DNA of 64,000 nt from an uncultured Bacteroidia bacterium (GCA_964481195.1 CAYZTB010000005.1:10138-74137); one strand, 5' to 3'. Positions 4,498-56,912 are shown, counted from the first letter of the stretch. The notes: generated from the letters alone by a model not told the origin. Made by a program: numbers and translations.

Positions 4498-4505
4498 CAA
4501 AGGTA
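4498..4505 (-). promoter_or_regulatory. Bacteroidetes sigma-A -7 element TAnnTTTG (TACCTTTG on the minus strand) for the lacI-MFS-GH92 operon
   Basis: Exact TAnnTTTG match 12 nt upstream of the lacI ATG at 4487. Confidence 0.45.
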
Positions 4506-4564
4506 GGAGAATCTAATTAAAATCACATAAGATTTGGTGGTAATAAAATATTTCATACATTTGA

Positions 4565-4599
4565 CTAAATCAATTTAGTTGTTAATTAAATCGATTTAA
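4565..4599. promoter_or_regulatory. Two related palindromes, candidate LacI-family operators. CTAAATCaATTTAG is at 4565-4578 and TTAAATCGATTTAA (perfect, 14 bp, central CG) is at 4586-4599, with centres 21 bp apart.
   Basis: Read directly from the sequence. They sit in the divergent region between the lacI operon and the adhesin gene at 4631. A central CG within an AT-rich palindrome is typical of LacI-family operators. Confidence 0.4.
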
Positions 4600-4630
4600 A
4601 TACACTAGCTAACCCTAACACAACCATACA

Positions 4631-14458: not shown

Positions 14459-14459
14459 T

Positions 14460-19277: not shown

Positions 19278-19286
19278 AAGACCCTA

Positions 19287-42498: not shown

Positions 42499-45400
42499 CT
42501 ACCTAACTACATTTACATTTCCAACATAAATAAACTGTTGGCTAAACACATCTACTAAGCTTACTTTCCAAACATATACGTCTTCTTGCATTAAAATTCC
42601 ACTTTGTCCATTCATATCAGACCCACCAGGTTTAACTATGCCATCCCATTGACAATAAGAAGATAAACCATCTTGACCAGGGCTGTCCCAATCTGTATTT
42701 TTTCCTGTATGATGACAATCCCAAATCATATTTCCCCATCTATCAAATATCCAAATATCGTATTCTTTTATTCCTCTACCCTTTCCAAAGAACATATCAT
42801 TAGTTCCGTCTTTATTGGGTGTAAAGGTGTTAGGTATATAAAAAGTAACTTCTGGCAAGATCTCAATTACTTTAGAAATTGTATCCCAGCAACCATAAAT
42901 GTTTTGAACAGTTAATGTAACCGTATAAGAGTAAAAATTATTCGTAGTGGTGGTTGCTGAATAACTATGAATTGGATCCGTATGCGTACTGTCTAATGAT
43001 GATCCATCGCCAAAATTCCACATCCAATTTGTAACATTGGTTGACCATAAATCACAAAAATTAAATGTTGGGTCTGTGATACTTGCAAAATTTGGAGTCA
43101 CACAAAATTGAGCATCGGGCCAGTCATAAATAGTAATGTATAGTGGAGCAGATATTGAATCTACACAACCATAAGTAGAAGTAACAATTAATGAGGCGTT
43201 GTAACTTCCTGGCTTGCTCCAACAAATTGTAGGATTTTGAGAAGTAGAAAAACTTGGATTACCTCCCGGGAATGACCATTGCCAGCTTGTTATAGTACCG
43301 TCAACTGACGTAGACAAATCAGAAAAAGTTGCGCAGGATGGAGCACATCCTTTTACTGAATCAGAAAATAATGCAATGGGTGACTGGTATATTGTAATTG
43401 CACTTGTTGTAGTATCCTTACAGCCGTTTATGGTTGTTACAATAAGTGTGACCGTATAGGCGCCAGAAGATACATACGTATGAGTTGGATGTTGATTTAT
43501 ATCGTTGGGTGAGCCATCGCCAAAATTCCAATTCCAAGCATTGATAGCATTTCCTGCTTGCGTTGTAGAAGCATCAGTAAAATTAGTTGGCGCATTCAAA
43601 CATCCGCTTTGAGAAACAATTGCAGCAGCAGGAATTGGATATACCTGAATAGGAATAGAAGTAACATTTTGACAACCACTATCAGATGTAACTGTTAAAA
43701 TCACAGAAAAAGTTCCTGATAAACTAAATGCATGACATGGGCTTTGCAATGCAGAAGTATTTGCAATTCCGGTGCTAGGATCACCAAAATTCCAACTCCA
43801 AGAAATAATATTGCCTGGATTTACTGTTGAATTATCTGTAAAACATGTCTGCGATCCAAAACAAACTGACGTAGAAGTAAACAATGCAGTGGGCAAAGGA
43901 TTTACAATTGCAAGAAGTTGAATGGAATCCGAACATCCTTCAGCATTGGACACTGTAAGACTTACAGAAAAAGTACCCGGATTATTATATGTATGTGTTG
44001 GATTTTGTATTGAAGAAGTGTTTCCATCGCCAAAATTCCAGCTCCACTGGATTGGAGCACCTGTTGATAAATCCATAAATACAGTAGGATTATTGAAACA
44101 AACAATGGATGAAGAAAAATTAGCAACCGGACTTGGATTTACTGTAACAGTTTGGCTTATAGTATCTGCACATCCGGTGATTGTTGTTACTATTAAAGTA
44201 ACAGAGTAAGTTCCAGGTGAAGCAAAAATATGAGATGGATTCTGTAGCGTATCGAGCGCACTTCCATCGCCAAAATTCCAGCTCCAAGTAGCAATTGGGT
44301 CGCCTATTTGAGCAACAGTTGAATCAATAAAAAAAGTTGTAGCTCCTATACATACTGGGCCAGATCCAAATGCAGCTGCAGGTGTCAATCCTCCAACACC
44401 TCCAGTAACAGCAACTGTTGCTGTATAAGCAACATTGCAACTAGTTGATGCTGTCACAGTATAATTCCCTGGACATAAACCTGTAATCGTTTGAGTGGTT
44501 TGCCCACCAGGAGACCACATTAACAAATAGTTAACCTGATTACAACAAGCTATAATATTCGCAGTAGCAGTACCATTGCAAGTACCACCACAACCCGTAT
44601 TAGAAGGAGTTGAAGTAACAGTAAAATTTTGAACAACAGTAATTGGAGGTATATCAATTTCAGTTACAAAAGCAGTTCCACATGCATACAATTTATTATT
44701 GGGGCCAAGCTTAACATCTGCACAAGTGTTTGAAAGTGAATAGCTAGCTAACGCCACAAGTGAAGAATCATAAACCTGAACATTACTCCCTATACCAACA
44801 TACACTTTGTCGCATTTATCCACGGATAAACCACCTGAGGAAAACATAATACCTCCCGTATTTACTTGGCTTTTAAATGCTCCGGTATTTTTATTCCATT
44901 TCTTAAGTACGTTACCGTCATAGCTATATAAATTACAATAGCTGCAAGTCATTCCGTTGTACCCATTAGCACGATTTGCAACTCCTCCTACATATGTTAC
45001 GCTGTTCCACTCATAAAAAGAATATCCTGTAGGAACTAAAAAAGTATACGGAGCAAGTGCAGGTATAGGAACTTTAAACATTTCATTACTAAACTGTAAG
45101 CCATGAACCAAGCTACGAGCAGTTGACATGTATGCAAAAGTTCCTAATGGATCGATTGTCAATAATACAATATCATGATAACCAATATTTGTTGTAGCAA
45201 TTGAATTAACTGGAGAAATACTTAATAAATTTGTATCAAGCATACAAGTTTGATTGGAAGTATTTGTTCCTCCTCCCCCAATAACAATTTTATTTGTGCA
45301 ACTATTGTATTCAGCACGCCACATTTCTACAAAAGTAGTTGAACCAGGAAATATTGCAGTTTGTATACCGAGTGTATTCACTTTTAATGCTCTAGATCCA

Positions 45401-46407
45401 ACACCGGCATTGTACCCTTCAACTAAATAACTTGTACCTGTATTTTCATCCACTGTAAAATCTCCATATTGCAGTGGACCTAAACCTGCTGCATTAAACA
45501 CCCATAATAGCGCACCTGCAGGACTAAATTTTGCAAGCTTAAAGGGCGTGTGTGATCCATAAGCGTAAACATTTCCATTCTTATCAAAGTTTACATCATA
45601 AGCAACATTGTATCCAGCAAAAGTTGGGTTTGTAACCCAAGGGTCAATTACTATTGTCTTCTTGTTGTTATAACTATCAACATAAAAAAATAATTCATTT
45701 CCTTTTAGAATATAATTTGACTTTAGAATGGTTTTTTCATTTTCATATGTTGTAATTGGTGCATGATCAACAAAATCGCCAAATAAACTTTTTGAAATAA
45801 TGTCGCCATTTGAATTCAAAACCATTCCTGTGGTATTGGGTAATTGTAATCTAACTTTTGATATATCCGCTCCCGGCCTTACAATTATATTATACTTTAT
45901 GCCCTCCTTATTTTTTGGAAAAAAATATTCTACGTCAATGTTTTTGTAAATATTTTTGTAAATTATTTTACTATAGCCTTTAGCTTTTATTGGATTTCCT
46001 AACGAATCAGCATAGGAATAATAATGCGAAACCTCTTCTTCTGCAATAATGTTTACAGCTGGATTTGCGCCTATCCAATGAGCGCTGTAAAAAAATACTT
46101 CAGAATTAGTTTCAGCCTGCTCATTCTCTTCTTGGTTATCTTCCTTTTTTCTTACAGAGGCTTTATCATATCTGTATGTAATTTCTTCTCTGGTAAAAAA
46201 CACTTCAACGCCCGAACTATTAGTAGAAAATAATATTTGCGAAGAGCCTGTATTGCTTTTTCCATCAAACTGTCCTTTATTTTCTATAAATACCTTATGC
46301 CCAAAAGGATTAGTAGCATCCCATCGTTCCTGACTAATGCCCACCAAAGAAAGTAGGAAGCTTCCAATAAATAAAAAAGACTTGCCATGGAGGTTAATTA
46401 CTCTCAT
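42499..46407 (-). CDS. Large secreted adhesin (paralogue B): signal peptide, beta-propeller-like head of about 600 aa, an SprB-like repeat, five PKD domains, and a T9SS type-B CTD
   Basis: The PKD pattern WSWNFGDG... appears five times. The C-terminus YIPNTFTPNKDGTNDMFFGKGRGIKEYDIWIFDRWGN is a type-B CTD. The last 450 aa are about 75% identical to paralogue C. Confidence 0.8.
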   Translation of the reverse strand: MRVINLHGKSFLFIGSFLLSLVGISQERWDATNPFGHKVFIENKGQFDGKSNTGSSQILFSTNSSGVEVFFTREEITYRYDKASVRKKEDNQEENEQAETNSEVFFYSAHWIGANPAVNIIAEEEVSHYYSYADSLGNPIKAKGYSKIIYKNIYKNIDVEYFFPKNKEGIKYNIIVRPGADISKVRLQLPNTTGMVLNSNGDIISKSLFGDFVDHAPITTYENEKTILKSNYILKGNELFFYVDSYNNKKTIVIDPWVTNPTFAGYNVAYDVNFDKNGNVYAYGSHTPFKLAKFSPAGALLWVFNAAGLGPLQYGDFTVDENTGTSYLVEGYNAGVGSRALKVNTLGIQTAIFPGSTTFVEMWRAEYNSCTNKIVIGGGGTNTSNQTCMLDTNLLSISPVNSIATTNIGYHDIVLLTIDPLGTFAYMSTARSLVHGLQFSNEMFKVPIPALAPYTFLVPTGYSFYEWNSVTYVGGVANRANGYNGMTCSYCNLYSYDGNVLKKWNKNTGAFKSQVNTGGIMFSSGGLSVDKCDKVYVGIGSNVQVYDSSLVALASYSLSNTCADVKLGPNNKLYACGTAFVTEIDIPPITVVQNFTVTSTPSNTGCGGTCNGTATANIIACCNQVNYLLMWSPGGQTTQTITGLCPGNYTVTASTSCNVAYTATVAVTGGVGGLTPAAAFGSGPVCIGATTFFIDSTVAQIGDPIATWSWNFGDGSALDTLQNPSHIFASPGTYSVTLIVTTITGCADTISQTVTVNPSPVANFSSSIVCFNNPTVFMDLSTGAPIQWSWNFGDGNTSSIQNPTHTYNNPGTFSVSLTVSNAEGCSDSIQLLAIVNPLPTALFTSTSVCFGSQTCFTDNSTVNPGNIISWSWNFGDPSTGIANTSALQSPCHAFSLSGTFSVILTVTSDSGCQNVTSIPIQVYPIPAAAIVSQSGCLNAPTNFTDASTTQAGNAINAWNWNFGDGSPNDINQHPTHTYVSSGAYTVTLIVTTINGCKDTTTSAITIYQSPIALFSDSVKGCAPSCATFSDLSTSVDGTITSWQWSFPGGNPSFSTSQNPTICWSKPGSYNASLIVTSTYGCVDSISAPLYITIYDWPDAQFCVTPNFASITDPTFNFCDLWSTNVTNWMWNFGDGSSLDSTHTDPIHSYSATTTTNNFYSYTVTLTVQNIYGCWDTISKVIEILPEVTFYIPNTFTPNKDGTNDMFFGKGRGIKEYDIWIFDRWGNMIWDCHHTGKNTDWDSPGQDGLSSYCQWDGIVKPGGSDMNGQSGILMQEDVYVWKVSLVDVFSQQFIYVGNVNVVR

Positions 46408-46455
46408 TAATTATTGTTTAAAAAAATAGTACTCAAAAAAAGTAATCCGCAATAA

Positions 46456-49400
46456 TTACCTTACCACATTAACATGTCCGATGTATGCATGTCGTTTATT
46501 AAACACATCTATTAATCTTACTTTCCAAACATATACGTCTTCCTGCATTAGTTGGCCGCTTTGTCCGCTCATGTCCATGCCGCCTCCTACTACTTTGCCA
46601 TCCCATTTACAAAATGAACTTAATCCATCTTGTCCGGGGCTGTCAAAATCTGTATTCTTTCCTGTATGTTCACAGTTCCAAAGTAAATTGCCCCAACGAT
46701 CGAATACCCATATTTCATATTCTTTAATACCTCGACCTTTACCAAAAAACAATTCATTCATACCATCTTGGTTGGGAGTAAATGTATTGGGAATGTAAAA
46801 TGTAAACTCTGGTAAAATCTCTATTGTCTTGCTTATGGTATCCCAACATCCATAAATATTTTGTACTGCCAATGAAATAGTAAAATAATAAAAATCATTA
46901 TTTAGTACAGAAAGAGAATAAGAGTGTGCTGGGTCTGTATTGATGCTATCTTTTGGAGAGCCATCACCAAAATCCCACATCCAACTTGTTACACTATTTG
47001 ACCAAAGATCGCAGAAAACAAAATTAGGATCTGTAATTGAAGCAACAGTAGGAGCTACACAGAAATTTGCAACCGGCCAATCATATACCGTTATATAAAG
47101 TGGGGTAGCTACGGAATCTACACATCCGTAGCTTGAAGTAACAATTAAGGAAGCACCATATACTCCGGGTTTGTTCCAACAAACTTTTGGATTTTGTAAT
47201 CCTGAAATTGCTGGGTTTCCTCCAGGGAATGACCATTGCCAAGACGCGATGGTTCCATCTATCGAAGTAGATAAATCATTAAAGGTTGCACAAACAGGAG
47301 CGCATCCTTTTACTGAATCCGAATAAAGTGCAATGGGTGGATTGTATATTACTGCTGTGCTTGTGGTTGTGTCTTTACAGCCCTGTACGGTAGTTACAAT
47401 TAAGGTAATGGTATAAGTTCCTAGCGTTGAGTATGTATGAGATGGATTTTGATTTACATCATTGGGTGATCCATCGCCAAAATTCCAGCTCCAAGCATTT
47501 ATTGGACTGCCTGCAGGAGAAGTAGATGCATCAGTAAATGGTGTTAAAGCATTTAAACAAACATTCTTTGGTGTGATAGCAGCTGTTGGCAATGGATATA
47601 CATTGGCAGGCAACATCGTTGTGCTTTGACATCCGCTATCGGTAGTGGCTGTTAAAATTACGGTGAATGTGCCAGGGCCCGAAAATGTATGACATGGGTT
47701 TTGTGCTGTAGATATATTTGCTGCACCGGATGTTGGATCTCCAAAATTCCAACTCCAACCTGTGATGGTGCCAGGTGTTACAGTGGAAGCATCCGTAAAG
47801 CAAGACTGATTGCCTACGCATACGGGCGTGGAGCTAAATAATGCTAAGGGTAAAGGATTAATTATAGCTAATAAATTTACAGTGTCAACACAACTCGAAG
47901 TGTTAGTAATAATTAAAGTTACCGAATAAGTTCCTGGTGCTCCGTAGGTATGTGATGGGTTTTGCGAAGTTGAAGTGCTGCCATCGCCAAAATTCCAATT
48001 CCATTGTGCAACAGTAGGATTCCCTACAGATTGATCAGTAAATAGAGTTGGGTTATTAAAACAAACAGGTGCAGTTATTGCAGCAGCAACGGGGTCAATT
48101 CCTGCTGACACTATAATTGGTATTATAACCGTATCAATACATCCTTGCTGGGATGTAACAATTAAAGAAACCGAATAAGTTCCTGGAGAATATATAATGC
48201 CAGATGGATTTTGCGATATTGAACTTGTTGGTGATCCTCCAGGGAAACTCCAATTCCATACTACAATTGGAGTACCATTGGGAGTGTAGCTTGAATCTGT
48301 AAATGATACAACTCCACTTCCACAAGTCCCTAAAGGTGTGTAATTAAAATTTGATGTTACTTGCATCGGGGTAGGAACATAAGTAATGTAAAACGGACAG
48401 CCAGATGGTTGTGAAACAAGTACAGCAAAAGTATCGCCTGGCTGAGGGAAAGGAATAATAGTTTGTGAGGTAGAATTTGGAGCACCAGTATATGGTTGTC
48501 CGTTATGAGACCACTGATATGTGTAATTAATTATCGGATCGGTAGGTGCAGTAATTGTTACAGAATTTCCTACACAGTATGATGCAGGATTTGTAGAAAG
48601 TGAACCACATGAGAAATCCCAATATGAATAGCAGTAGTGTCCGCCTAACGCACAATCTGAATTTGTAATTACAACAGTCAAATTTTGACCAACAAAAGCC
48701 GATAGATTTACCCCTTCCAAAGTCCACGGCTTATAAGAAACAATCATGCCAGCCGGAGGATATCCCGGATTTAGCGAACCAGCACAAGATGCTTGAAAAA
48801 AACCATTTCCTACTCCTCCATTTAAGTCCGCAATGTATTTTCTATGACTACAGGGAACAGTATCTCCATTGGCTTTTAAAATATAAATTTCTGAAAATGG
48901 CGCTTCTGCTGCCGTATGCCCACCAGGTGGATTCTCAAGCACTAAAGCATATGCATAAATAAAATTTGTATCCTGTGGTCCAACAGTTAGCGGGTATCGA
49001 AGTTGCTCCGAACATCCGTTTCCAGCTGCACCAACGCCCGGAGGTGGGTATGGCAAACTATTGGCACATCCCCCGTTTAAGCCACTTGTATTTGGTTGCC
49101 CTAATTGAATTGATGCATTTCCAAAACCAGGACAAACTAGAGGTATTGGTGGGCCTGTTGTTCCTTGAGTGCAAGGATCTACTCCGGCACCACTAGTAAG
49201 ATTAAACCGAGGTGTAACAGGTGCAACGGGTGCAAAAAATGTAGGATCAGGTGAGCCTCCTTTCTGGTGAAACCCTGTAGCTGCTGTGTAGCTACTCCAT
49301 CCATTTTCTCCGCCTAAATCACTACATGCTGCAAACGGACTTACAGGTATATTTTTTTTTACGATTGGATTTGTACCAGGAGCACTCTCACCATTTTGTA

Positions 49401-49518
49401 TTTGAATTTTATTAGAAGTAGCTTTGTTAGTAGATTGCGCAAATAAAGTTTGTGTACAAAAAAATGTTACACCAACAATAAAAACAAAGAAAATCCAGTT
49501 TCTGTAATACTTATTCAT
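46456..49518 (-). CDS. Large secreted adhesin (paralogue C): signal peptide, MAM-like head domain, PKD domains, and a T9SS type-B CTD
   Basis: The head contains CSDLGGENGWS...RFNLTSGAGVDPCT...PGFGNASIQLGQP...YKPWTLEGVNL...SYWDFSCG, shared with D and E. The C-terminal cassette is shared with B. Confidence 0.8.
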   Translation of the reverse strand: MNKYYRNWIFFVFIVGVTFFCTQTLFAQSTNKATSNKIQIQNGESAPGTNPIVKKNIPVSPFAACSDLGGENGWSSYTAATGFHQKGGSPDPTFFAPVAPVTPRFNLTSGAGVDPCTQGTTGPPIPLVCPGFGNASIQLGQPNTSGLNGGCANSLPYPPPGVGAAGNGCSEQLRYPLTVGPQDTNFIYAYALVLENPPGGHTAAEAPFSEIYILKANGDTVPCSHRKYIADLNGGVGNGFFQASCAGSLNPGYPPAGMIVSYKPWTLEGVNLSAFVGQNLTVVITNSDCALGGHYCYSYWDFSCGSLSTNPASYCVGNSVTITAPTDPIINYTYQWSHNGQPYTGAPNSTSQTIIPFPQPGDTFAVLVSQPSGCPFYITYVPTPMQVTSNFNYTPLGTCGSGVVSFTDSSYTPNGTPIVVWNWSFPGGSPTSSISQNPSGIIYSPGTYSVSLIVTSQQGCIDTVIIPIIVSAGIDPVAAAITAPVCFNNPTLFTDQSVGNPTVAQWNWNFGDGSTSTSQNPSHTYGAPGTYSVTLIITNTSSCVDTVNLLAIINPLPLALFSSTPVCVGNQSCFTDASTVTPGTITGWSWNFGDPTSGAANISTAQNPCHTFSGPGTFTVILTATTDSGCQSTTMLPANVYPLPTAAITPKNVCLNALTPFTDASTSPAGSPINAWSWNFGDGSPNDVNQNPSHTYSTLGTYTITLIVTTVQGCKDTTTSTAVIYNPPIALYSDSVKGCAPVCATFNDLSTSIDGTIASWQWSFPGGNPAISGLQNPKVCWNKPGVYGASLIVTSSYGCVDSVATPLYITVYDWPVANFCVAPTVASITDPNFVFCDLWSNSVTSWMWDFGDGSPKDSINTDPAHSYSLSVLNNDFYYFTISLAVQNIYGCWDTISKTIEILPEFTFYIPNTFTPNQDGMNELFFGKGRGIKEYEIWVFDRWGNLLWNCEHTGKNTDFDSPGQDGLSSFCKWDGKVVGGGMDMSGQSGQLMQEDVYVWKVRLIDVFNKRHAYIGHVNVVR

Positions 49519-49533
49519 TTTTTTGTATAAATT

Positions 49534-52155
49534 TTACCTTACCACATTAACATGCCCAATATACATGTGTTTTTTATCAAAAATATCAACTAATCTAACT
49601 TTCCAAACATAAACGTCTTCCTGTGCTAGTTGATTGCTACCTCCGCCCATATCAACACCACCTTTTACAACCTTGCCATCCCACTTACAAAACGAAGGCA
49701 ATCCTTCTTGTTTTGGATTAGTGGCATCGTTATCCCAGTTTGTGTTTTTATCTTCGTGATGACAATCCCAAATTTGATTTCCCCATCTATCGAACAACCA
49801 GATATTATATTCTTTAATGCCTCTTCCTTTACCATAAAATAACTCGTTTACAAAATCGCCATTAGGCGTGAATGTATTTGGAATATAAAATGTAAACTCA
49901 GGCATCAACTCTACTATTTTACAAATAGTATCCCAACATCCATACTGATCCTCTACCCTTAAGCACACGTTGAAAGCATAGAAGTCATTTTGCGTAGCTG
50001 TTGCTGAGTAACTATGAATTGGGTCTGTGTTTACATAGTCAGAATCATTATCTCCAAAATTCCAAGACCACGATATTACATTTGAAGTCCACAGGTCACA
50101 AAAATTAAATACCGGATTGGTTACAGGCTGCATAGTCGGAGTTACACAAAAATTTGCTTTAGGACCTGGTACTGTAGAAATCATAGGAAGAGTAAGCGTG
50201 TCCTTACAACCATAGTTAGTTGTAACCAATAAAGTTGCATTATAATTTCCTGGCGTGTAGTAACAAATATTAATAGGATTTTGAGCGGCAGAACCAGTAG
50301 GTGTGCCTCCAGGGAATGTCCATTGCCAATTAACAATATTGCCATCTACTGGCTGAGATAAATCTGTGTAATCATTACAAATTACACCGCAGCCACTATC
50401 AGGAGCAGAGAAATTAGCAAGAGGAGGATTGTAAACAACTACCTGTTGAACTACAGTATCTATACAACCATTTTTAGATGTTACCACTAAAGTAACCATA
50501 TGAGTACCAGCTGTTAAATAGCTGGTAGCTGTATTTTGAGAAGTAGCAGAAGTTGGAGTACCACCCGGCATTGACCAGTTCCAAGCTGTTATCGGATCTC
50601 CTTGCAATCCAACAGAACCATCTGTTAATGATGTAGCATTTCCTAAACATGGCGTTGATGGGGTAAGTGCTGCGGTAGGAAATCCTCCCGTTGTGACAGA
50701 ATGGGTAACATTAGCTGAACACCCATTCGATGCTGTGATAGTTAACGATGCAGTATAATTACCCGGAGGGTATGTTACATTAACAGTAGGCGTAGTTGCT
50801 GTTGCTGGTGAACCGCCAGGAAACGACCAACTATATCCGGTAATATTTGCAGATCCTTGAGGTGAAACAAAGCTGCTATCTTTAAAAATATAATTACCAC
50901 AAACACCCGTAAAATTAAAGTTAGGCAATGCTAGTCCTGGGGCATAAGTAAGATAAAAATTACAACCTGATGGTTGAATAACTTGAAGCTGAAACGTATC
51001 TCCTTGTACTGGGTTAACAACATAGGTTTGGTTAGTTTGACCCGGTACAACTACACCATTATGATACCATTGATAAGTAAATGGATTATTGGGGTCAGAG
51101 ATAGGGCCTGTCATTGTGGAAGTACCACCTATACAGCCTAGAGAAAGAGGTACAGGACCACACTTGAAATCCCAATAGGAGTGAGCATAATGACCACATT
51201 GTGCACAATCCACGTTTGTAATAATAATAGTTAAATTTTGTCCTACATATTGTTTAAGATTTACTCCAACTGTAGTCCAAGGTTTGTATGACGTACTAGT
51301 ACCTCCAAGACATCCTCCTGTTCCTGCAGCAGTAAAAAATCCTGGGAGTGGGCCAGAACCTCCAGGGGCTACATATTTTTGGTAAGAACAATCCACTGTG
51401 TCTCCATTTGGAGCAAGAATTAAAAATTCTGCAAATGGGCGCTGGGTTTGAGAATGCGAAGATCCTGGATCGAATAATACAACCGCATAAGCGTAAACAA
51501 AGTTTGTATCTTGTACAGTAGGAACAAAATTATAAGTCATTTGTTCTACCCAACATCCAGTTTTTTGAGGACATCCAAGTTGCAACGATGCGTTACCAAA
51601 ACCAGGAGCAACTAATGGAATTGTTGGACCAGGGCCACCTCCAATAGGATTAGTTCCGGGAGTACAAGGATCTATTCCAGTACCTGAAGTCATTGTAAAA
51701 CAAGTAGTAGTAGAGTTTGTATTTACAGGAGGGGATACAGAAGCACTCATGGTAGGAATACCTGTAGTACCATTTGTAGTACCCGGTGCACCTGCCCACG
51801 TACTCCATCCGTTTTCAAATCCAACATCACCGCAAGCCATTACAGATGGAGGGTTGCCGGACTTATCTTTTAGCACACTTAGATCTTCTTTGTGTACATT
51901 TTTAAAGTCTTTAAAAAATTGCTTTCTATTGGCTATTAACTTATCAATAACTACAGATGGAACTCCATCTTTTTTCATAACCTCTCTCTCTTTTGCTTCA
52001 TTAAAATATTGGGGAGAAATTCTGTAGTCCCCTAAAAGCTTAGGCTCATTTGATGGATTTGTCTGAGCGTTTGTTGTAGTCGAAATTAACATCGCTACGG
52101 TAAATGCTCCAACAATAATTGAAGCAAACGATAATTTGTTTTTTAATGTATTCAT
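49534..52155 (-). CDS. Large secreted adhesin (paralogue D): signal peptide, MAM-like head, PKD domains, and a T9SS type-B CTD
   Basis: It has the same head-domain motifs as C and E (MACGDVGFENGWSTW; RFN-like; SYWDFKCG). The CTD is YIPNTFTPNGDFVNELFYGKGRGIKEYNIWLFDRWGNQIW. An 11-nt gap to the upstream gene indicates an operon. Confidence 0.8.
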   Translation of the reverse strand: MNTLKNKLSFASIIVGAFTVAMLISTTTNAQTNPSNEPKLLGDYRISPQYFNEAKEREVMKKDGVPSVVIDKLIANRKQFFKDFKNVHKEDLSVLKDKSGNPPSVMACGDVGFENGWSTWAGAPGTTNGTTGIPTMSASVSPPVNTNSTTTCFTMTSGTGIDPCTPGTNPIGGGPGPTIPLVAPGFGNASLQLGCPQKTGCWVEQMTYNFVPTVQDTNFVYAYAVVLFDPGSSHSQTQRPFAEFLILAPNGDTVDCSYQKYVAPGGSGPLPGFFTAAGTGGCLGGTSTSYKPWTTVGVNLKQYVGQNLTIIITNVDCAQCGHYAHSYWDFKCGPVPLSLGCIGGTSTMTGPISDPNNPFTYQWYHNGVVVPGQTNQTYVVNPVQGDTFQLQVIQPSGCNFYLTYAPGLALPNFNFTGVCGNYIFKDSSFVSPQGSANITGYSWSFPGGSPATATTPTVNVTYPPGNYTASLTITASNGCSANVTHSVTTGGFPTAALTPSTPCLGNATSLTDGSVGLQGDPITAWNWSMPGGTPTSATSQNTATSYLTAGTHMVTLVVTSKNGCIDTVVQQVVVYNPPLANFSAPDSGCGVICNDYTDLSQPVDGNIVNWQWTFPGGTPTGSAAQNPINICYYTPGNYNATLLVTTNYGCKDTLTLPMISTVPGPKANFCVTPTMQPVTNPVFNFCDLWTSNVISWSWNFGDNDSDYVNTDPIHSYSATATQNDFYAFNVCLRVEDQYGCWDTICKIVELMPEFTFYIPNTFTPNGDFVNELFYGKGRGIKEYNIWLFDRWGNQIWDCHHEDKNTNWDNDATNPKQEGLPSFCKWDGKVVKGGVDMGGGSNQLAQEDVYVWKVRLVDIFDKKHMYIGHVNVVR

Positions 52156-52166
52156 CTTTGTTTAAT

Positions 52167-53432
52167 TTAATCTGTAATTGTAATTAAGCCTTGTTGGTAA
52201 ATATCTCTTCCATTTTTGTTTTTTACTACTGCTTTCCATAAATAAGTTTCTCCTTTTCTTGTGTTATTTCCTTCCCATACTAGATTTTTATCTGATGTTT
52301 TATATACGATGTTCCCTTGTGCATCTGAGATAGTAATTGTAAATTCATAATCTCCCGACTGAAGAGTAATAGGCATCCAAGTATCATTAATCCCGTTTCC
52401 ATCTGGGCTAAATGCATTAGGGGCTAACAAGTCTAATTCGTTTTTCAGATTCACTTCTTTTACTACAACACCCACACATCCAATTTGATTTTTTACATAT
52501 AAAGTAACTTTGTACGATCCATACTTTTTATACGAGTGACTAGGGCTTGGCATGAAAGAAGTTTGCTTATCTCCAAAATCCCATTTCCAATCTGCAGCAT
52601 CGCTATAGTCAGAATCAAAATTAACCAGTAACTCATTTTCTGCCGAAACCAATGTGTTTATTCTTGGATCTGGAGCAGCAGAAACAATAATATTGTTTTT
52701 CTCCTCTGCTTTTTTTCTGTCTACTTCCGAAATGATTTGAAGTTTTACTGTAAAGGAACCTGCCTCTTTATAGATATGTTTGGGGCTTGCTTCTGTAGAT
52801 GATTGACCATCGCCAAAATACCATTTGTAGGAGCAAACAGCCTCATTTTTTGCAGGCAAAAACTGCACTTCTTCTCCTTCGCAAATTGCACGCTTGCTTG
52901 TTTGGAAAGAAGCCGATAAGACAACCGGAATAGTTTCTTGTTTCTGCGCAGTGGTTGTTTGAGTAGGAACAGTAGGAGTGTTTTTGTTATCTGAAACTAA
53001 AACTTCATTTTTCTTTTGATTATTTTCTACTTCAGGAGATTTTCCCAAAACCACATTATTGTTTTCTACTTTTCTAGTCTCCTCTTTATTAGAATTCACT
53101 GCAGCATGCTGATTGTTTAAATTTATTTTTCTATTAGAAGGATCAGCATTTTGAATTTGTGTGTTTTCTTCAGAAACAACTGGCATACTTGTTTTCTCAA
53201 CAACATCTTTTGGTGCATTAACCGAATTGCTTTCAGTACTAAAGTAATAGAATAGCCCAGATGCTAAAATAACTGAGGCAGCAATTAAAATATTTCTTGT
53301 AATTTTTGATGTAGGATTACTAACCGCAGCAGTGTCAAGTTTACGTTCTAGCGCTTTCCAATCCGCTGCATTATAATCCACCTCGAAGTTTTCAAGCGAC
53401 TCTTTAATGTGTTTATCTAACTGGCCTTTCAT
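52167..53432 (-). CDS. Signal-anchored (N-in, single TM) protein with a low-complexity linker, two PKD domains and a T9SS type-B CTD; candidate anti-sigma factor or sensor for the adjacent ECF sigma
   Basis: A 44-aa hydrophilic N-terminus precedes one TM helix (ILIAASVILASGLFYYF). The PKD patterns are KWYFGDGQSS...HIY and WKWDFGDKQTS...HSY. The CTD is LLAPNAFSPDGNGINDTWMPI. A 1-nt gap to the sigma stop codon indicates translational coupling. The anti-sigma role is inferred from position and topology only. Confidence 0.45.
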   Translation of the reverse strand: MKGQLDKHIKESLENFEVDYNAADWKALERKLDTAAVSNPTSKITRNILIAASVILASGLFYYFSTESNSVNAPKDVVEKTSMPVVSEENTQIQNADPSNRKINLNNQHAAVNSNKEETRKVENNNVVLGKSPEVENNQKKNEVLVSDNKNTPTVPTQTTTAQKQETIPVVLSASFQTSKRAICEGEEVQFLPAKNEAVCSYKWYFGDGQSSTEASPKHIYKEAGSFTVKLQIISEVDRKKAEEKNNIIVSAAPDPRINTLVSAENELLVNFDSDYSDAADWKWDFGDKQTSFMPSPSHSYKKYGSYKVTLYVKNQIGCVGVVVKEVNLKNELDLLAPNAFSPDGNGINDTWMPITLQSGDYEFTITISDAQGNIVYKTSDKNLVWEGNNTRKGETYLWKAVVKNKNGRDIYQQGLITITD

Positions 53433-53433
53433 T

Positions 53434-54015
53434 TTATTTTTGATGTGCTGTTACTATCTTTTCGAGATCTTTTTTTAAGTGTGCTTTTGCTTTAGACAAA
53501 TTAGATTTTGAAGTGCCTATATTAATTCCTAACTGATCTGCAATTTCCTGATGCGAAAAACCGTCAACAACAAATAAGTTGAAAACTGTTCGGTAGGCCT
53601 CTGGTAATTGTTGAACTGCTTGCATGATTTCTTTAGTGCTTAACTGTAAATATTCGCTTTCGTCTGTTGTTTCGTCTGCTTTATCTTCTATAAAATCCGA
53701 ACTTGTATGATTAATAAATTGCTTATTCTTTCTTATATAATCTAGTGCTGTATTAACAATAATTTTTCTTACCCAACCTTCAAATGATCCTTTTCCTTGA
53801 TATGATTTAATACTTGTGAATACTTTTAAAAACCCATCTTGTAATATATCTTTTGCTTCTTCATTATTAGCTGAGTATCTCAAACAAGCTCCCATCATTT
53901 TGCCATACAATTTCTGATATACTAATTGCTGGTATTTTCTTTCCCCTTTAATACAACCTTCAATTATGTCAAAAAACGGATCTTTTTTATCTTCACTCAT
54001 CACATCTGTACTCAT
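53434..54015 (-). CDS. ECF (sigma-70 family group IV) RNA polymerase sigma factor; the true start is probably the second ATG at 54000
   Basis: Region 2 is DILQDGFLKVF...W..I..N...D. Region 4 is AYRTVFNLFVVDGFSHQEIADQLGINIGTSKSNLSKA. The promoter motif overlaps the first ATG. Confidence 0.85.
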   Translation of the reverse strand: MSTDVMSEDKKDPFFDIIEGCIKGERKYQQLVYQKLYGKMMGACLRYSANNEEAKDILQDGFLKVFTSIKSYQGKGSFEGWVRKIIVNTALDYIRKNKQFINHTSSDFIEDKADETTDESEYLQLSTKEIMQAVQQLPEAYRTVFNLFVVDGFSHQEIADQLGINIGTSKSNLSKAKAHLKKDLEKIVTAHQK

Positions 54016-54045
54016 AAGACGTTAATATTACAAAAGGTTGCCTTA
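54016..54045 (-). promoter_or_regulatory. ECF-type promoter on the minus strand: TAAGGCAACC-N15-CGTCTT followed by a conserved AGTACA box; a candidate autoregulatory promoter of the sigma operon
   Basis: The minus-strand reading is ATAAGGCAACCTTTTGTAATATTAACGTCTTATGAGTACAGAT. The identical architecture recurs at 56790-56820. GGAAC/CGTC-like spacing is typical of ECF sigma promoters. Confidence 0.5.
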
Positions 54046-54131
54046 TTACCTATCCAAAATCAATGATTATTACAAAAAAAGACGAAAATTCATAAATACT
54101 TGAAAATAAATTAAATAAAACACAATACTTC

Positions 54132-54167
54132 AAAAAAAAACCCGTAAGAGAACTTACGGGTTTTTTT
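54132..54167. terminator. Bidirectional rho-independent terminator separating paralogue E from the sigma operon
   Basis: A9 run, then CCCGTAAG-AGAA-CTTACGGG, then T7 run (54141-54160 stem-loop). Confidence 0.75.
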
Positions 54168-54183
54168 ATTGATAGTCAAACAA

Positions 54184-56745
54184 TTACTTTACAATGTTAA
54201 CGTGACCTATATAAAGGTGTTTTTTATCAAATATATCAGTCAGTCTAACTTTCCATACATAAACATCCTCTTGAGCAAGTTGGTTGCTACCACCTCCCAT
54301 ATCTACTCCTCCTTTTACAACTTTTCCGTCCCATTTGCAATAGGATGAAAGTCCATCTTGTTTAGGATTTGTAGCATCATTATCCCAATTGGTATTTTTA
54401 TCTTCTACATGACAATCCCAAATTTGATTTCCCCATCTGTCAAAAAGCCAGATGTTATATTCTTTCACACCACGACTTTTCCCAAAAAACATTTCATTAA
54501 TAAAATCGCCATTAGGAGTAAATGTGTTAGGTATATAGAATGTAAACTCAGGAATAAGCTCCACAATTTTACAGGTTGTATCCCAACATCCGTATTGATT
54601 CTGAACATTAATACAAATTTTATAAGAATAAAAATCATTTGATGTTGCAGTTGCAGAATACGAATGTGAAGGATCTGTATTAATGATATCAGTCGTGTTA
54701 TCGCCAAAATCCCAAGTCCACTGAACTACATCCGTTGACCAAAGGTCACAAAAATAAAATACTGGGTTAGTAGTTGGCGCTATAGTTGGAGTAACACAAA
54801 AATCTGCATTAGGCCATGGGTATACTTCAACCATTGGAAGCTGAATGGAAGCCTTACAGCCAAAGTTTGTAGTCACACTAAGTGAAACGCTATAGGATCC
54901 AGGAGTATAATAACAAATATTAGTTGGGTTTTGAGATGAAGATGAAGATGGTGTTCCTCCAGGAAAAGACCAAGACCAAGAATTTACTGTTCCATCAACA
55001 GCTTGTGATAAATCAGTATAGTTAGCGCACACTGGAGAACAGCCACTATCTGGCGCAGAAAAATTAGCAATAGGAAGATTGTAAACCAATACCTGCTGAA
55101 TAATCGTATCAATACATCCAGCGACAGAAGTAACAATCAAAGAGACGGTATGCGTTCCCGCTATATTGTAAGTTGTTGAGGTATTTTGACTGGTAGCTGA
55201 AGCAGGATTTCCGCCAGGCATATTCCAATTCCAAGATGCAATGGGATCCCCTTGAACAGCCACAGATCCATCTGTTAATGTAGTAGCAACTCCTAAACAA
55301 GGAATAGTAGGAACAACTGCAGCTGTTGGAAACCCACCTACAGTAAGTGGTTGAGAAATAGTTGCCGTACATCCTTCAGATGAAGTAACTGTAATAGATG
55401 CTGTATAATTTCCAGGCGGGTATGTCACATTGGCTGTTTGGGTATTTGCCGTTGATGGACTGCCACCCGGAAAGCTCCAATTCCAATTAGTTATAGTTGA
55501 AGAAGTTGATGGAGTAACAATGCTATTATCTACAAACACATAGTTGCCGCAATTGCCTGTGTAAGTAAAGTTGGGTTGTACAACCGCAGGTGCATATTTC
55601 AAAAAGAAATTACAACCTGATGGCTGGATTACTTGAACAGCAAAAGTATCATTGGGAGTTGGTGTAACTAATAATGTTTGATTTGTTGCACCTGGCATTA
55701 AGGTGCCATTTTGATACCATTGATAATTATAGGGTACAGTAGAAGTCGAAGCTGGTCCAACAATAGAAGATTGGTTTCCAACACAACCCGCTGCTAAAGG
55801 CACTGGGCCACATTGCACATCCCAATAAGAGTGCGCATAGTGTCCACAGAATACACAATCATGATTATCAATTACACAAGTCAATTGCTGTCCTACATAT
55901 GCAGATAGATTTACGCCAACAATTGTCCAAGGCTTGTAAAAAGTACTATTTCCACCTAGGCATCCTGCAGCTGCTGTATACCATCCCGGTAAATTTGGGT
56001 CACTAATATAACGCTGAAAAGAGCAAGGAACTGTATCTCCATTTTGGTCTAATATTTTAAACTCTACATAAGGCTTTTCATTAAATGCATGTCCACTGGA
56101 AGGATCATAAAGTACAGCTGCAAATGCATAAACTAAATTTGTATCCTGTGCAGTTGGAGTGAAGGGAAACGTAAGTTGTTCTGTCATGCAACCAGTAGTT
56201 TGTGGTTGACCTAATTGAATAGAAGAGTTTCCAAACCCTGGAGCAACAACAGGTATTGTTGGAGCTCCTGCTGCAGCTCCTGGCGTACACGGATCTATTC
56301 CCGCTCCTGTTGTTATATTAAATCGAGGTGCTGGTGGATTAGGTACTGCTGGTTGTAATGTGCCGGGATTTCCTCCACTGTTCGAACCTATTGCTCCTAC
56401 CCATTGACTCCAACCATTTTCTACGCCTAAATCAGTACATGCTAAAGGAACAGGATTAGGATCTTTCTTTTTTGAGAATTGGGTAGAAGAAACAATTGAC
56501 TTATACTTTTGAAGATATAATTTTCTATCTGCTAATACTCTATCAATTTCCGGATCTGATAATCCGTCTTTTTTCATCATTTTTCTAAGCTCTTCATCGC
56601 TGGTACCAGTAACTATTGTTGCCTTTTCAGGAGAGTTTTTGCTAATAGTTTGTTGAGCAAACAACTCATTAAAAAAAAATGGTGAACAAAAAAAAGCAGT
56701 GATAAAAAAAATTACAGATAATCTAGCTGTTGTTTGGTTTTTCAT
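54184..56745 (-). CDS. Large secreted adhesin (paralogue E): signal peptide, MAM-like head, PKD domains, and a T9SS type-B CTD; monocistronic
   Basis: LACTDLGVENGWSQW, RFNITTGAGIDPCT, SYWDVQCG. The CTD is YIPNTFTPNGDFINEMFFGKSRGVKEYNIWLFDRWGNQIW. The DNA is about 80% identical to D over the 3' 400 nt. Confidence 0.8.
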   Translation of the reverse strand: MKNQTTARLSVIFFITAFFCSPFFFNELFAQQTISKNSPEKATIVTGTSDEELRKMMKKDGLSDPEIDRVLADRKLYLQKYKSIVSSTQFSKKKDPNPVPLACTDLGVENGWSQWVGAIGSNSGGNPGTLQPAVPNPPAPRFNITTGAGIDPCTPGAAAGAPTIPVVAPGFGNSSIQLGQPQTTGCMTEQLTFPFTPTAQDTNLVYAFAAVLYDPSSGHAFNEKPYVEFKILDQNGDTVPCSFQRYISDPNLPGWYTAAAGCLGGNSTFYKPWTIVGVNLSAYVGQQLTCVIDNHDCVFCGHYAHSYWDVQCGPVPLAAGCVGNQSSIVGPASTSTVPYNYQWYQNGTLMPGATNQTLLVTPTPNDTFAVQVIQPSGCNFFLKYAPAVVQPNFTYTGNCGNYVFVDNSIVTPSTSSTITNWNWSFPGGSPSTANTQTANVTYPPGNYTASITVTSSEGCTATISQPLTVGGFPTAAVVPTIPCLGVATTLTDGSVAVQGDPIASWNWNMPGGNPASATSQNTSTTYNIAGTHTVSLIVTSVAGCIDTIIQQVLVYNLPIANFSAPDSGCSPVCANYTDLSQAVDGTVNSWSWSFPGGTPSSSSSQNPTNICYYTPGSYSVSLSVTTNFGCKASIQLPMVEVYPWPNADFCVTPTIAPTTNPVFYFCDLWSTDVVQWTWDFGDNTTDIINTDPSHSYSATATSNDFYSYKICINVQNQYGCWDTTCKIVELIPEFTFYIPNTFTPNGDFINEMFFGKSRGVKEYNIWLFDRWGNQIWDCHVEDKNTNWDNDATNPKQDGLSSYCKWDGKVVKGGVDMGGGSNQLAQEDVYVWKVRLTDIFDKKHLYIGHVNIVK

Positions 56746-56789
56746 TTTGTTTATATTATTGGGGATTAAAAAATCTGATTTGTACTTTA

Positions 56790-56820
56790 AAGACGTAGTT
56801 ATTGCAAAAGGGTTGCCTTA
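56790..56820 (-). promoter_or_regulatory. Second copy of the ECF-type promoter (TTAAGGCAACCC-N16-CGTCTTTAAAGTACAAAT on the minus strand), 45 nt upstream of the paralogue E start codon
   Basis: Read directly from the sequence. It is near-identical to the motif at 54016-54045, including the downstream AGTACA.AT box. Confidence 0.5.
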
Positions 56821-56912
56821 AATTTCAAAATAATAATCAACCAAAGAAGTGAATTTTAAACAAAAAATTGAGCTTTATTACAGAAAACCCATTTTTAAAC
56901 AAATCAGATGCT

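What the first reader, a model, noticed from the sequence alone, without database searches (positions are those of the whole stretch)
42499..56826. ECF sigma factor operon dedicated to a five-member family of T9SS type-B/PKD adhesins
On the minus strand the gene order is ECF sigma (53434-54015), a translationally coupled signal-anchored PKD/type-B-CTD protein (52167-53432), paralogue D, paralogue C and paralogue B. The gaps are 1, 11, 15 and 48 nt, so this reads as one roughly 11.5 kb operon. Paralogue E lies immediately upstream as a separate unit, bounded by a perfect bidirectional terminator at 54132-54167. Both units are preceded by the same ECF-type promoter. T9SS type-B cargo is normally described with a co-transcribed PorP/SprF-type partner. 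No such gene is present here. Instead the family is wired to its own sigma/anti-sigma pair. I am not aware of a described ECF circuit that specifically controls a T9SS adhesin family in this way.
Basis: partly seen in the sequence, partly recalled or inferred. Interest (0 to 1): 0.85.

Follow-up and report, generated by a model that had tools for sequence, protein, structure and literature searches.

The report
Envelope-spanning anti-sigma switch for T9SS adhesins
An uncultured Bacteroidota genome carries a small regulatory gene pair (sigma factor plus membrane-anchored partner) that appears to switch on a cluster of large surface-protein genes; the partner resembles the recently discovered regulators that reach from the inner to the outer membrane, except that its outer end is an export signal for the type IX secretion system rather than a membrane barrel.

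Summary
Gene coordinates, gaps (1/11/15/48 nt), the hairpin at 54132-54167 and the two promoter copies are all present. The motif GGCAACC-N14/15-CGTCTT occurs twice in 64 kb, with 0 expected. The sigma / anchor / PKD-CHU_C gene order and the promoter recur in at least 8 divergent Bacteroidota metagenome loci.

The interpretation needs revising. The 421-aa "paralogue" is not a member of the adhesin family. Its N-terminal ~35-aa motif defines a large family (712 cluster representatives), and its members lay directly after an ECF sigma gene in 16 of 16 contexts examined. The C-termini in this family are outer-membrane beta-barrels (37 of 90), PKD plus type-B CTD (22-24 of 90) or PorP/SprF barrels (3 of 90). 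[quoted passage not shown] This locus is therefore a Dma-like anti-sigma whose barrel is replaced by a T9SS type-B signal, wired to type-B cargo genes.

A further close paralogue (4631-7540) lies outside the circuit, without the motif. The lack of a PorP/SprF neighbour is not anomalous, because orphan type-B substrates are known. Sigma binding, sigma dependence and the signal are all inferred; there are no expression data. Verdict: a new variant of a known kind, and fairly interesting.

The parts
56790..56817 (-). ECF-type promoter of paralogue E: GGCAACC-N15-CGTCTT, ending 44 nt before the ATG at 56745
   Evidence: One of only 2 matches in the window, 0 expected. The same motif lies before the E-like gene in L003 and before a stand-alone paralogue in L001.
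54184..56745 (-). Paralogue E (853 aa): signal peptide, PKD repeats, type-B CTD carrying a Cys-containing insert. It is a separate transcription unit.
   Evidence: Pfam PKD_4 and CHU_C. 60% identical to D. Bounded by its own promoter and by the hairpin at 54132-54167.
54132..54167 (.). Bidirectional intrinsic terminator between E and the sigma promoter
   Evidence: Sequence read. RNAfold gives -21.9 kcal/mol, with a 15-bp stem counting the A/T arms.
54016..54042 (-). Autoregulatory ECF-type promoter of the sigma operon: GGCAACC-N14-CGTCTT
   Evidence: GCAACC and the C of the CGTC block are invariant and G, T, C are >=90% conserved in 12 aligned promoters, with variable flanks. A strict match lies upstream of the sigma orthologue in 9 independent loci.
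53434..54000 (-). ECF sigma factor, 188 aa from the ATG at 54000 (the ORF extends to 54015)
   Evidence: Sigma70_r2 plus r4_2, and TIGR02937 at 100 bits; no NCBIfam subfamily or equivalog cutoff is reached. 45-52% identical to sigmas paired with OMP-barrel (Dma-like) partners.
53301..53432 (-). Anti-sigma-like partner, residues 1-44: cytoplasmic helical hairpin with the motif FExxIKxSLExFExxYNxxDWxxhxxxL (putative sigma-binding module)
   Evidence: 44% identity among 24 homologues, against 14% in the linker. The profile finds 712 cluster representatives with 1-7 tandem copies. 16 of 16 contexts lie right after an ECF sigma gene.
53235..53300 (-). Partner, residues 45-66: single transmembrane helix (N-in by the positive-inside rule)
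   Evidence: Sequence. AF2 helix at 44-59.
52923..53234 (-). Partner, residues 67-170: low-complexity disordered tether
   Evidence: pLDDT below 30. 14% identity among homologues.
52443..52922 (-). Partner, residues 171-330: two PKD domains
   Evidence: PKD_4 at 98 bits. pLDDT above 90.
52170..52442 (-). Partner, residues 331-421: T9SS type-B CTD (CHU_C) without the insert seen in the cargo CTDs
   Evidence: CHU_C matches profile positions 3-86 of 86, 34.8 bits against a gathering threshold of 27. TIGR04131 scores 28.2, below its cutoff of 35. It is the most conserved part of the protein (58%). The model shows a four-strand sheet. The conserved blocks align with the cargo CTDs.
49534..52155 (-). 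Paralogue D (873 aa), type-B CTD/PKD cargo, 11 nt after the partner gene
46456..49518 (-). Paralogue C (1020 aa), 15 nt after D
42499..46407 (-). Paralogue B (1302 aa, with an N-terminal DUF7948 domain), 48 nt after C; last gene of the unit, convergent with pheT
   Evidence: No hairpin in the intergenic gaps.
4631..7540 (+). Additional close paralogue (969 aa) outside the circuit, with no ECF motif; divergent from a LacI-family gene at 3486-4556
   Evidence: 50-55% identical to B-E, including the Cys-insert CTD. Pfam PKD_4, SprB and CHU_C. No motif match there.

Best explanation
This is a sigma/anti-sigma module of the Bacteroidota class whose anti-sigma factors reach from the cytoplasm to the outer membrane (Dma-like). 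Here it is wired to type IX secretion cargo.

Proposed mechanism:
1. The 188-aa ECF sigma transcribes its own operon (sigma, partner, D, C, B) from GGCAACC-N14-CGTCTT. It transcribes the stand-alone gene E from a second copy of that promoter.
2. The 421-aa partner holds the sigma at the inner membrane through its conserved ~40-residue N-terminal hairpin.
3. A transmembrane helix and a ~105-residue disordered tether carry two PKD domains and a type-B CTD across the periplasm.
4. The CTD is taken up by the T9SS, or docks on a PorP/SprF-type outer-membrane barrel encoded elsewhere. The protein then bridges both membranes, as the barrel-ended relatives do.
5. A change at the outer end (secretion activity, surface contact or envelope damage) leads to cleavage of the tether and release of the sigma. 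Production of the PKD/type-B-CTD surface proteins then rises.

Shown by sequence: gene order, domains, the promoter pair and its conservation, and the strict association of the N-terminal module with ECF sigma genes.
Inferred: sigma binding, membrane topology, engagement with the T9SS, the nature of the signal, the proteolytic release, and the adhesin function of the cargo.
For: - Structure of the locus and its domains.
- The motif occurs twice in the window with 0 expected. It is conserved as two blocks, GCAACC and CGTC, with variable flanks, before every sigma orthologue and before separate paralogues in L001 and L003.
- Sigma, partner and large PKD/CHU_C genes are syntenic in L001, L003, L006, L007, L052 and L065. 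Sigma identity is 42-71% and partner identity 28-46%.
- In the partner, the N-terminus, the TM helix and the CTD are conserved while the linker is not.
- The N-terminal profile finds 712 cluster representatives. Of 90 scanned, 37 carry OMP_b-brl_2, 22-24 carry PKD plus CHU_C, and 3 carry PorP_SprF.
- Every context examined puts these proteins directly after an ECF sigma gene.
- One PorP/SprF-fused member is followed by an abutting 214-aa CHU_C gene.
- The window sigma is 45-52% identical to the sigmas of barrel-type partners, and one of those (L091) has the same promoter type.
- Published: residues 1-40 of Dma1 suffice to bind Das1, and Dma1 spans both membranes through a disordered tether (PMC10927553).
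- The AF2 model shows hairpin, TM helix, disordered 60-167, two confident PKD domains and a four-strand CTD. That matches the published description of type-B CTD predictions (PMC12618676).
Against: - There are no expression or binding data, and every sequence comes from metagenomes.
The link to Dma rests on shared architecture and on homology to barrel-ended sigma partners.
- Known T9SS substrates are released into the periplasm by signal-peptide cleavage. An inner-membrane-tethered substrate has no precedent.
- The TIGR04131 score is below its cutoff.
- The partner's CTD is only about 25-30% identical to the cargo CTDs and lacks their insert, so it probably does not use the same shuttle.
- Relatives of the partner in Fluviicola-like genomes have no adjacent cargo genes.
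- A close paralogue of the cargo lacks the promoter.
- The AF2 run on a sigma/N-terminus fusion was uninformative.
Confidence: 0.6

Rival explanations
1. The partner is a conventional single-pass anti-sigma factor. It binds the sigma as proposed, but its PKD and CHU_C-like domains stay in the periplasm as an ordinary sensor (for example of cargo build-up or a ligand). The CTD fold is reused and is not handled by the T9SS.
For: T9SS cargo normally has a cleavable signal peptide, whereas this protein has a 46-residue N-terminal region followed by an anchor. TIGR04131 is below its cutoff. The partner's CTD differs from the cargo CTDs.
Against: The CTD is the most conserved region, it passes Pfam's threshold over its full length, and it sits at the extreme C-terminus. 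Sister architectures end in outer-membrane barrels, including PorP/SprF, which is the known receptor of type-B CTDs. The disordered tether of about 105 residues matches the Dma design (PMC10927553).
Confidence: 0.25
2. The adhesin genes only neighbour the sigma pair. They are transcribed from their own housekeeping-type promoters, and the real regulon of the sigma lies elsewhere, for example an envelope-stress regulon like that of EcfO/Das1.
For: TAnnTTTG boxes lie 50-80 nt before the starts of C and B, inside conserved coding sequence. Fluviicola-like relatives have the sigma pair without adjacent cargo. One close paralogue has no ECF motif.
Against: The gaps are 11-48 nt with no hairpins. 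The gene order is conserved across genomes whose partner proteins are only 28-46% identical. A second copy of the promoter sits before a stand-alone paralogue in three genomes.
Confidence: 0.1
3. The 421-aa protein is not an anti-sigma factor. It is simply the first cargo or anchor protein of the operon with an uncleaved signal anchor, and the sigma is controlled in some other way.
For: No Pfam or NCBIfam anti-sigma domain matches it. In L001 a DUF4382 gene sits between the sigma and this protein.
Against: The N-terminal 35 residues have invariant positions while the linker has drifted. The same module is attached to unrelated C-termini, and always right after an ECF sigma gene (16 of 16 contexts). 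The published 40-residue sigma-binding N-terminus of Dma1 sets a precedent (PMC10927553).
Confidence: 0.05

Closest known systems
[quoted passage not shown]
   Same: Encoded directly after an ECF sigma gene. A short N-terminal cytoplasmic region precedes one TM helix and a long disordered periplasmic tether. The C-terminal module is destined for the outer membrane. Restricted to Bacteroidota. The N-terminal module here is homologous to that of OMP_b-brl_2-ended sigma partners, and the sigmas are 45-52% identical.
   Different: The C-terminus is two PKD domains plus a T9SS type-B CTD rather than an eight-stranded beta-barrel. The linked genes are type-B-CTD surface proteins, not nigD or vesiculation genes. 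Homology to Dma1 itself was not tested.
PorXY-SigP-PorA cascade of Porphyromonas gingivalis (PMC4800418, PMC7712824, PMC12152298)
   Same: An ECF sigma is tied to the T9SS, and a CTD-bearing protein (PorA) takes part in signalling.
   Different: SigP is activated by a two-component system and controls T9SS machinery genes. PorA is a separate type-A CTD surface protein and is not fused to an anti-sigma factor. No cargo operon is involved.
Type-B CTD substrates and their PorP/SprF shuttles in Flavobacterium johnsoniae (PMC12618676, PMC9143113)
   Same: B-E and the partner carry CHU_C/type-B CTDs with the conserved blocks. Substrates without an adjacent shuttle gene ('orphans') are documented.
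   Different: No ECF regulation has been described for them. Here one CTD-bearing protein is anchored in the inner membrane and paired with a sigma. In relatives the shuttle-type barrel itself is fused to the sigma partner.
FecA-FecR-FecI cell-surface signalling (PMC9249621, PMC11637429)
   Same: A signal at the outer membrane is relayed through a single-pass inner-membrane anti-sigma or sigma regulator to an ECF sigma.
   Different: In that system the receptor and the anti-sigma are separate proteins, and the sensor is a TonB-dependent transducer. Here the outer element is part of, or directly bound by, the anti-sigma polypeptide.
FlgM/sigma-28 secretion checkpoint (from my own knowledge; not checked with the tools here)
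   Same: Conceptually, an anti-sigma factor that is itself a substrate of the secretion machine whose cargo genes its sigma controls.
   Different: FlgM is soluble and fully exported by the flagellar type III system. There is no sequence or structural relationship.

Membership tests
[quoted passage not shown] | Short N-terminal cytoplasmic region that binds the cognate sigma (Dma1 residues 1-40 suffice) | tested here: inconclusive
   A conserved 35-44-residue helical hairpin is present. It is homologous to the N-termini of OMP_b-brl_2-ended sigma partners.
[quoted passage not shown] | Single transmembrane helix after the N-terminal region | tested here: met
   A hydrophobic stretch at residues 48-64 preceded by K/R. 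AF2 helix at 44-59.
[quoted passage not shown] | Long intrinsically disordered tether | tested here: met
   Residues 60-167 have pLDDT below 30. The region is low-complexity, with 14% identity among homologues.
[quoted passage not shown] | C-terminal eight-stranded outer-membrane beta-barrel (OMP_b-brl_2) | tested here: not met
   The C-terminus is PKD x2 plus CHU_C, with no barrel match.
[quoted passage not shown] | Encoded next to an ECF21-type sigma factor | tested here: inconclusive
   It is adjacent to, and translationally coupled with, an ECF sigma. That sigma is 45-52% identical to the sigmas of barrel-type partners.
ECF (group 4) sigma factors | Only the sigma-2 and sigma-4 domains are present, and the promoter has an AAC-containing -35 element and a CGT-containing -10 element before its own gene | tested here: met
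   Sigma70_r2 and r4_2; TIGR02937 at 100 bits against a cutoff of 42.9. GGCAACC-N14-CGTCTT lies before the gene and is conserved.
T9SS type-B CTD proteins (Pfam CHU_C / TIGR04131) | Type-B CTD at the extreme C-terminus | tested here: met
   CHU_C is above Pfam's gathering score for the partner (34.8) and for B, C, D and E (37.2, 32.5, 30.5, 28.5). All are below the stricter TIGR04131 cutoff (24.7-30.6 against 35). The conserved blocks align.
T9SS type-B CTD proteins (Pfam CHU_C / TIGR04131) | Cleavable Sec signal peptide that releases the protein into the periplasm | tested here: not met
   This verdict applies to the partner, which has 46 conserved residues before a TM helix. For B-E the feature is met by inspection: hydrophobic N-termini ending in AQ or SQ. 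No signal-peptide predictor was available.
T9SS type-B CTD proteins (Pfam CHU_C / TIGR04131) | Cognate PorP/SprF gene directly downstream (common but not obligatory) | tested here: not met
   No PF11751 match in the 36 window ORFs scanned, nor in the gene lists of L001, L003 and L005. Orphan substrates are documented (PMC12618676).
Class I anti-sigma factors (ASD / zf-HC2, RskA, FecR) | Recognisable anti-sigma domain | tested here: not met
   No Pfam or NCBIfam match in residues 1-170 at E <= 0.01. No PDB relative of the N-terminal profile.

The most novel reading that the evidence does not exclude
The anti-sigma factor is itself a tethered substrate or ligand of the type-B branch of the T9SS. 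When the secretion machine (or a PorP/SprF shuttle) captures or pulls its C-terminal domain, the tether is cut and the sigma is freed. Synthesis of type-B surface proteins would then be gated by secretion capacity or surface contact. This would be a FlgM-like checkpoint for the T9SS. It would also extend the Dma principle to a whole set of anti-sigma factors fused either to a type-B CTD or to the PorP/SprF barrel that receives such CTDs.
Probability: 0.3. Interest if true: 0.9.

Novelty: new variant of a known kind. Interest (0 to 1): 0.68.

Why it matters
Very little is known about how T9SS cargo genes are regulated outside the PorXY-SigP control of the machinery genes in Porphyromonas. The Dma anti-sigma family was described only in 2024 and has so far been linked only to vesiculation and envelope stress in gut Bacteroides.

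This locus and its relatives suggest that the same N-terminal sigma-binding module has been joined repeatedly to elements of the type-B secretion pathway. In some proteins it is joined to the signal domain, and in others to the PorP/SprF receptor barrel. If so, there is a direct physical line from the secretion or adhesion apparatus at the cell surface to transcription, and a concrete system in which to test it. The same data supply a sequence signature (the ~33-residue repeat) for finding this class of anti-sigma factors, for which no curated model matched in Pfam or NCBIfam.

Tried and rejected
- A profile search of the N-terminal region through the search for homologous proteins returned only 4 fragments, because of its word prefilter. 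The exhaustive representative search replaced it.
P0111 was identified.
- I tried to tie the family to Bt Dma1/Das1 or Bf Reo/EcfO directly and could not:
  - no supplements are held for the Dma paper or the ECF reclassification paper;
  - Staron 2009 and Ndamukong 2013 are not held;
  - the cluster look-ups gave no organism names;
  - the sigma profile search saturated at 8000 hits with no Bacteroides among the 120 listed.
- NCBIfam has no model for the barrel-type partners.
- The PDB holds no relative of the N-terminal module.
- AF2 on a direct fusion of the sigma with partner residues 1-47, without an alignment, gave mean pLDDT 58 and pTM 0.42. The sigma's last helix ran straight into the partner's first helix, so the model is uninformative.
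- The idea that the partner is a recently anchored copy of the adhesins is rejected. It is only 21-35% identical to them, it has its own orthologue family, and it occurs without adhesins in Fluviicola-like genomes.
- The idea that the missing PorP/SprF gene is itself anomalous is rejected (PMC12618676).
- Motif matches elsewhere in the 1.44 Mb of fetched loci number about what chance predicts (roughly 7, my estimate), and most lie inside coding sequence. Only L050, L009 and L061 look like possible extra targets, and I did not pursue them.

Full report
**Observation**

The gaps are 1, 11, 15 and 48 nt.

Pfam and NCBIfam give the following:
- The sigma is an ECF sigma: Sigma70_r2 plus r4_2, and TIGR02937 at 100 bits. 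No subfamily or equivalog cutoff is reached.
- B to E each have 4-6 PKD domains and a C-terminal CHU_C (type-B T9SS) domain. These pass Pfam's threshold but fall below the stricter TIGR04131 cutoff.
- The 421-aa protein has no match in its first 170 residues. It then has two PKD domains and a full-length CHU_C domain at the very C-terminus.

GGCAACC-N14-CGTCTT (54016-54042) and GGCAACC-N15-CGTCTT (56790-56817) are the only matches in 64 kb, with none in 100 shuffles. The hairpin at 54132-54167 is real: -21.9 kcal/mol, with A- and T-runs on either side. No hairpins lie in the intergenic gaps of the unit.

One correction concerns the sigma start. The -10 element touches the ATG at 54015, so the true start is almost certainly the ATG at 54000. 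That start is conserved in the orthologues, and a 188-aa form is on record.

**Origin and reality of the locus**

The sigma, the partner, E and topA occur as identical proteins on a 95,390-bp contig held by NCBI, with further copies in JGI, ENA or Logan assemblies. The closest named glmS relative is from an uncultured 'Bacteroidia bacterium'. Type-A CTD proteins in the window (CotH at 56913-58532, a PNGase-like protein at 7598-8839, and 30456-31901) imply that the organism has a T9SS.

**Conservation**

The partner has about 24 full-length homologues at 37-48% identity. Their contexts are:
- L001: sigma, a DUF4382 gene, the partner, then three to four PKD/CHU_C genes.
- L003: arginase, CotH, an E-like gene, sigma, partner, then PKD/CHU_C genes, which is the same layout as the window.
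- L005: an E-like gene, sigma, partner.

A scan of representative genomes plus tblastn added L006, L007, L008, L052 and L065, which include Flavobacteriales and Crocinitomicaceae MAGs. In these the sigma is 42-65% identical and the partner 28-39%. Large PKD/CHU_C genes lie downstream wherever sequence is available.

The two-block motif lies 2-25 nt before the first start codon downstream of it in every sigma orthologue locus. It also lies before stand-alone paralogues in L001 and L003. In an alignment of 12 promoters only GCAACC and the CGTC block are conserved. In the 1.44 Mb of fetched loci about 7 chance matches are expected (my estimate), and roughly that many unexplained matches were found.

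**What the 421-aa protein is**

It is not a fifth paralogue. B to E share 50-62% identity over their C-terminal halves. The partner matches them only at 21-35%, and only over generic PKD/CTD blocks.

Among its homologues, identity to the window protein varies by region:
- N-terminal residues 1-44: 44%, with invariant I9, K10, L13, E17, D24 and W25
- TM helix: 48%
- residues 67-170: 14%
- PKD domains: 49%
- CTD: 58%

AF2 with the 24-sequence alignment gives a helical hairpin (2-14, 22-38), a TM helix (44-59) and a disordered stretch at 60-167 (pLDDT below 30). Two confident PKD domains follow, then a CTD with a four-strand sheet facing a less ordered segment. That last feature is how type-B CTD predictions are described in PMC12618676.

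A profile of the N-terminus plus TM helix, searched exhaustively against 1.84 billion representatives, found 712 proteins at E <= 1e-3. The ~33-residue motif F(E/D)xxIKxxLxx(F/Y)ExP(Y/F)NxxDWxxMxxxL occurs in 1-7 tandem copies before a TM helix.

Of 90 members scanned with Pfam:
- 37 end in OMP_b-brl_2
- 24 have PKD_4 and 22 have CHU_C
- 3 have PorP_SprF; P0111 was confirmed at 70.7 bits, and at 74 bits against TIGR03519

Every context I looked up places these proteins directly after, and often overlapping, an ECF sigma gene:
- P0079, P0070 and P0134 (barrel type)
- P0089, P0090 and the L092 Fluviicola protein (Ig plus CTD-like type)
- P0111 (PorP/SprF type, followed by an abutting 214-aa CHU_C gene)

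Together with the nine orthologous loci this makes 16 of 16 contexts.

**Comparison with what is known**

[quoted passage not shown] That architecture is an N-terminal sigma-binding region (Dma1 residues 1-40 suffice to bind Das1), a TM helix, a long disordered tether and a C-terminal OMP_b-brl_2 barrel in the outer membrane. Dma proteins are encoded next to ECF21 sigmas and occur only in Bacteroidota (PMC10927553; also PMC13088901 and PMC13114119 for Reo/EcfO).

The window sigma is 45-52% identical to the sigmas paired with barrel-type partners in L086, L088 and L091. L091 carries the same promoter type, GGCAACC-N16-CGTT.

None of the Dma papers I read mentions T9SS, CTD or PorP variants. Searches combining anti-sigma with T9SS, SprF or dual membrane-spanning terms found no such description.

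I could not obtain the Dma1/Das1 or Reo/EcfO sequences. Membership in the Dma family proper and in ECF21 is therefore untested, and the defining C-terminal barrel is absent here. I file the partner as Dma-like in mechanism and as a new architectural variant.

**Mechanism**

The best-supported reading runs as follows.
1. The sigma autoregulates its operon and drives E from the second promoter.
2. The partner sequesters the sigma through its N-terminal hairpin.
3. The tether plus the PKD domains are long enough to cross the periplasm. This is inference: about 105 disordered residues could extend to over 30 nm.
4. The type-B CTD connects the protein to the outer membrane, either through the T9SS itself or through a PorP/SprF-type barrel encoded elsewhere.
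5. An event at that end triggers proteolysis and release of the sigma, as proposed for Dma1.

The strongest indirect support for an outer-membrane connection is that every alternative C-terminus in the family is outer-membrane-directed. These include PorP/SprF, the known receptor class for type-B CTDs.

Several points weigh against this reading:
- A tethered T9SS substrate has no precedent.
- The partner's CTD lacks the Cys-containing inserts of the cargo CTDs and is only distantly similar to them, so it probably uses a different receptor.
- Relatives in Fluviicola-like genomes (an Ldh, sigma, partner locus) have no adjacent cargo genes.

An AF2 attempt on a sigma/N-terminus fusion without an alignment was uninformative.

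1. The adhesin family has at least five close members in the window: B, C, D, E and a 969-aa gene at 4631-7540. The last has the same CTD type but no ECF motif, and it is divergent from a LacI-family gene. The circuit therefore does not cover the whole family.
2. The absence of PorP/SprF is confirmed for the window but is not anomalous. 3 of the 12 type-B substrates in F. johnsoniae are orphans served by the unlinked shuttle Fjoh_1677 (PMC12618676).
3. The sigma belongs to a very large group (at least 8000 relatives at E <= 1e-20) that includes partners of Dma-like proteins. That criterion is partly triggered. Regulons in this group differ between species, however, so it does not argue against control of the adjacent genes.

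**Verdict**

The feature is real and conserved. It is a Dma-like sigma/anti-sigma pair in which the outer-membrane barrel is replaced by PKD domains and a T9SS type-B signal, joined to an operon of type-B-CTD surface proteins and to a second promoter copy.

The class is known, but the architecture and its link to the T9SS appear to be undescribed. All functional steps are inferred from sequence. Interest 0.68; novelty: a new variant of a known kind.

Noticed in passing
window 3486-7540: A further close paralogue of the adhesin family (4631-7540, plus strand, 969 aa) is 50-55% identical to B-E and has SprB repeats. It is divergent from a LacI-family regulator gene (3486-4556, minus strand). The 75-nt gap contains a perfect 14-bp palindrome, TTAAATCGATTTAA, which looks like a LacI-type operator. 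It has no ECF motif.
   Followed up: partly
window 42499-42880, 46456-46830, 49534-49910, 54184-54560, 7160-7540 (C-terminal ~125 residues of B, C, D, E and the paralogue at 4631-7540): The cargo CTDs carry three insertions, about 30-35 residues in all, relative to the partner's CTD and to the Pfam model (CHU_C matches only profile positions 3 to 54-60 of 86). The insertions include a conserved Cys pair (WDC...SxC(K/Q)W(D/N)G), possibly a disulfide-bonded sub-domain.
   Followed up: partly
P0111, P0131, P0143 (contig of ERZ27296333, no DNA held): In these sigma partners the N-terminal repeats, TM helix and tether are fused to a PorP/SprF barrel. P0111 is followed by an abutting 214-aa gene whose only match is a weak CHU_C hit, which amounts to a minimal CTD/shuttle pair attached to an ECF sigma. 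For P0131 and P0143 the PorP_SprF assignment is inferred from their similarity to P0111, not confirmed by Pfam.
   Followed up: partly
P0070, P0079, P0083 and other hits: The ~33-residue sigma-partner motif is repeated up to 7 times in tandem before the TM helix in barrel-type members. The distribution among 108 full-length members is 0 copies: 1; 1 copy: 37; 2: 39; 3: 22; 4: 5; 5: 3; 7: 1. It is unexplained why an anti-sigma would need several copies (several sigmas per tether, or avidity?).
   Followed up: partly
L001 9450-9998: A DUF4382 gene (182 aa) is inserted between the sigma and the partner in one orthologous locus, overlapping the end of the sigma gene.
   Followed up: no
L087 5416-5998: The sigma gene is split into two ORFs (r2 and r4) in this contig. 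This is either a frameshift/pseudogene or an assembly error.
   Followed up: no
L050 5130; L009 1031; L061 5760: Strict promoter-motif matches with AT-rich spacers lie 46-81 nt upstream of signal-peptide-bearing genes in unrelated Bacteroidota MAGs. The genes are a 724-aa PKD/CHU_C-like protein and two small secreted proteins. They may be regulon members of related sigmas, or chance matches.
   Followed up: partly
L003 710-735: A motif-like sequence, GCAACC-N16-CGTCTT, lies about 30 nt before the topoisomerase I gene in the closest syntenic locus. The window's topA upstream region has no such match.
   Followed up: no
window 53434-54015: The longest ORF for the sigma starts 15 nt upstream of the likely true start. 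Gene callers disagree, with both 193-aa and 188-aa forms in the public collection.
   Followed up: yes
window 9810-11735 and 17223-21302; 11960-15437: Three TPR proteins, two of which also carry a PMT_2 (glycosyltransferase family 39-like) domain, lie near a TonB-dependent receptor/DUF4249 pair. They are unrelated to the finding.
   Followed up: no
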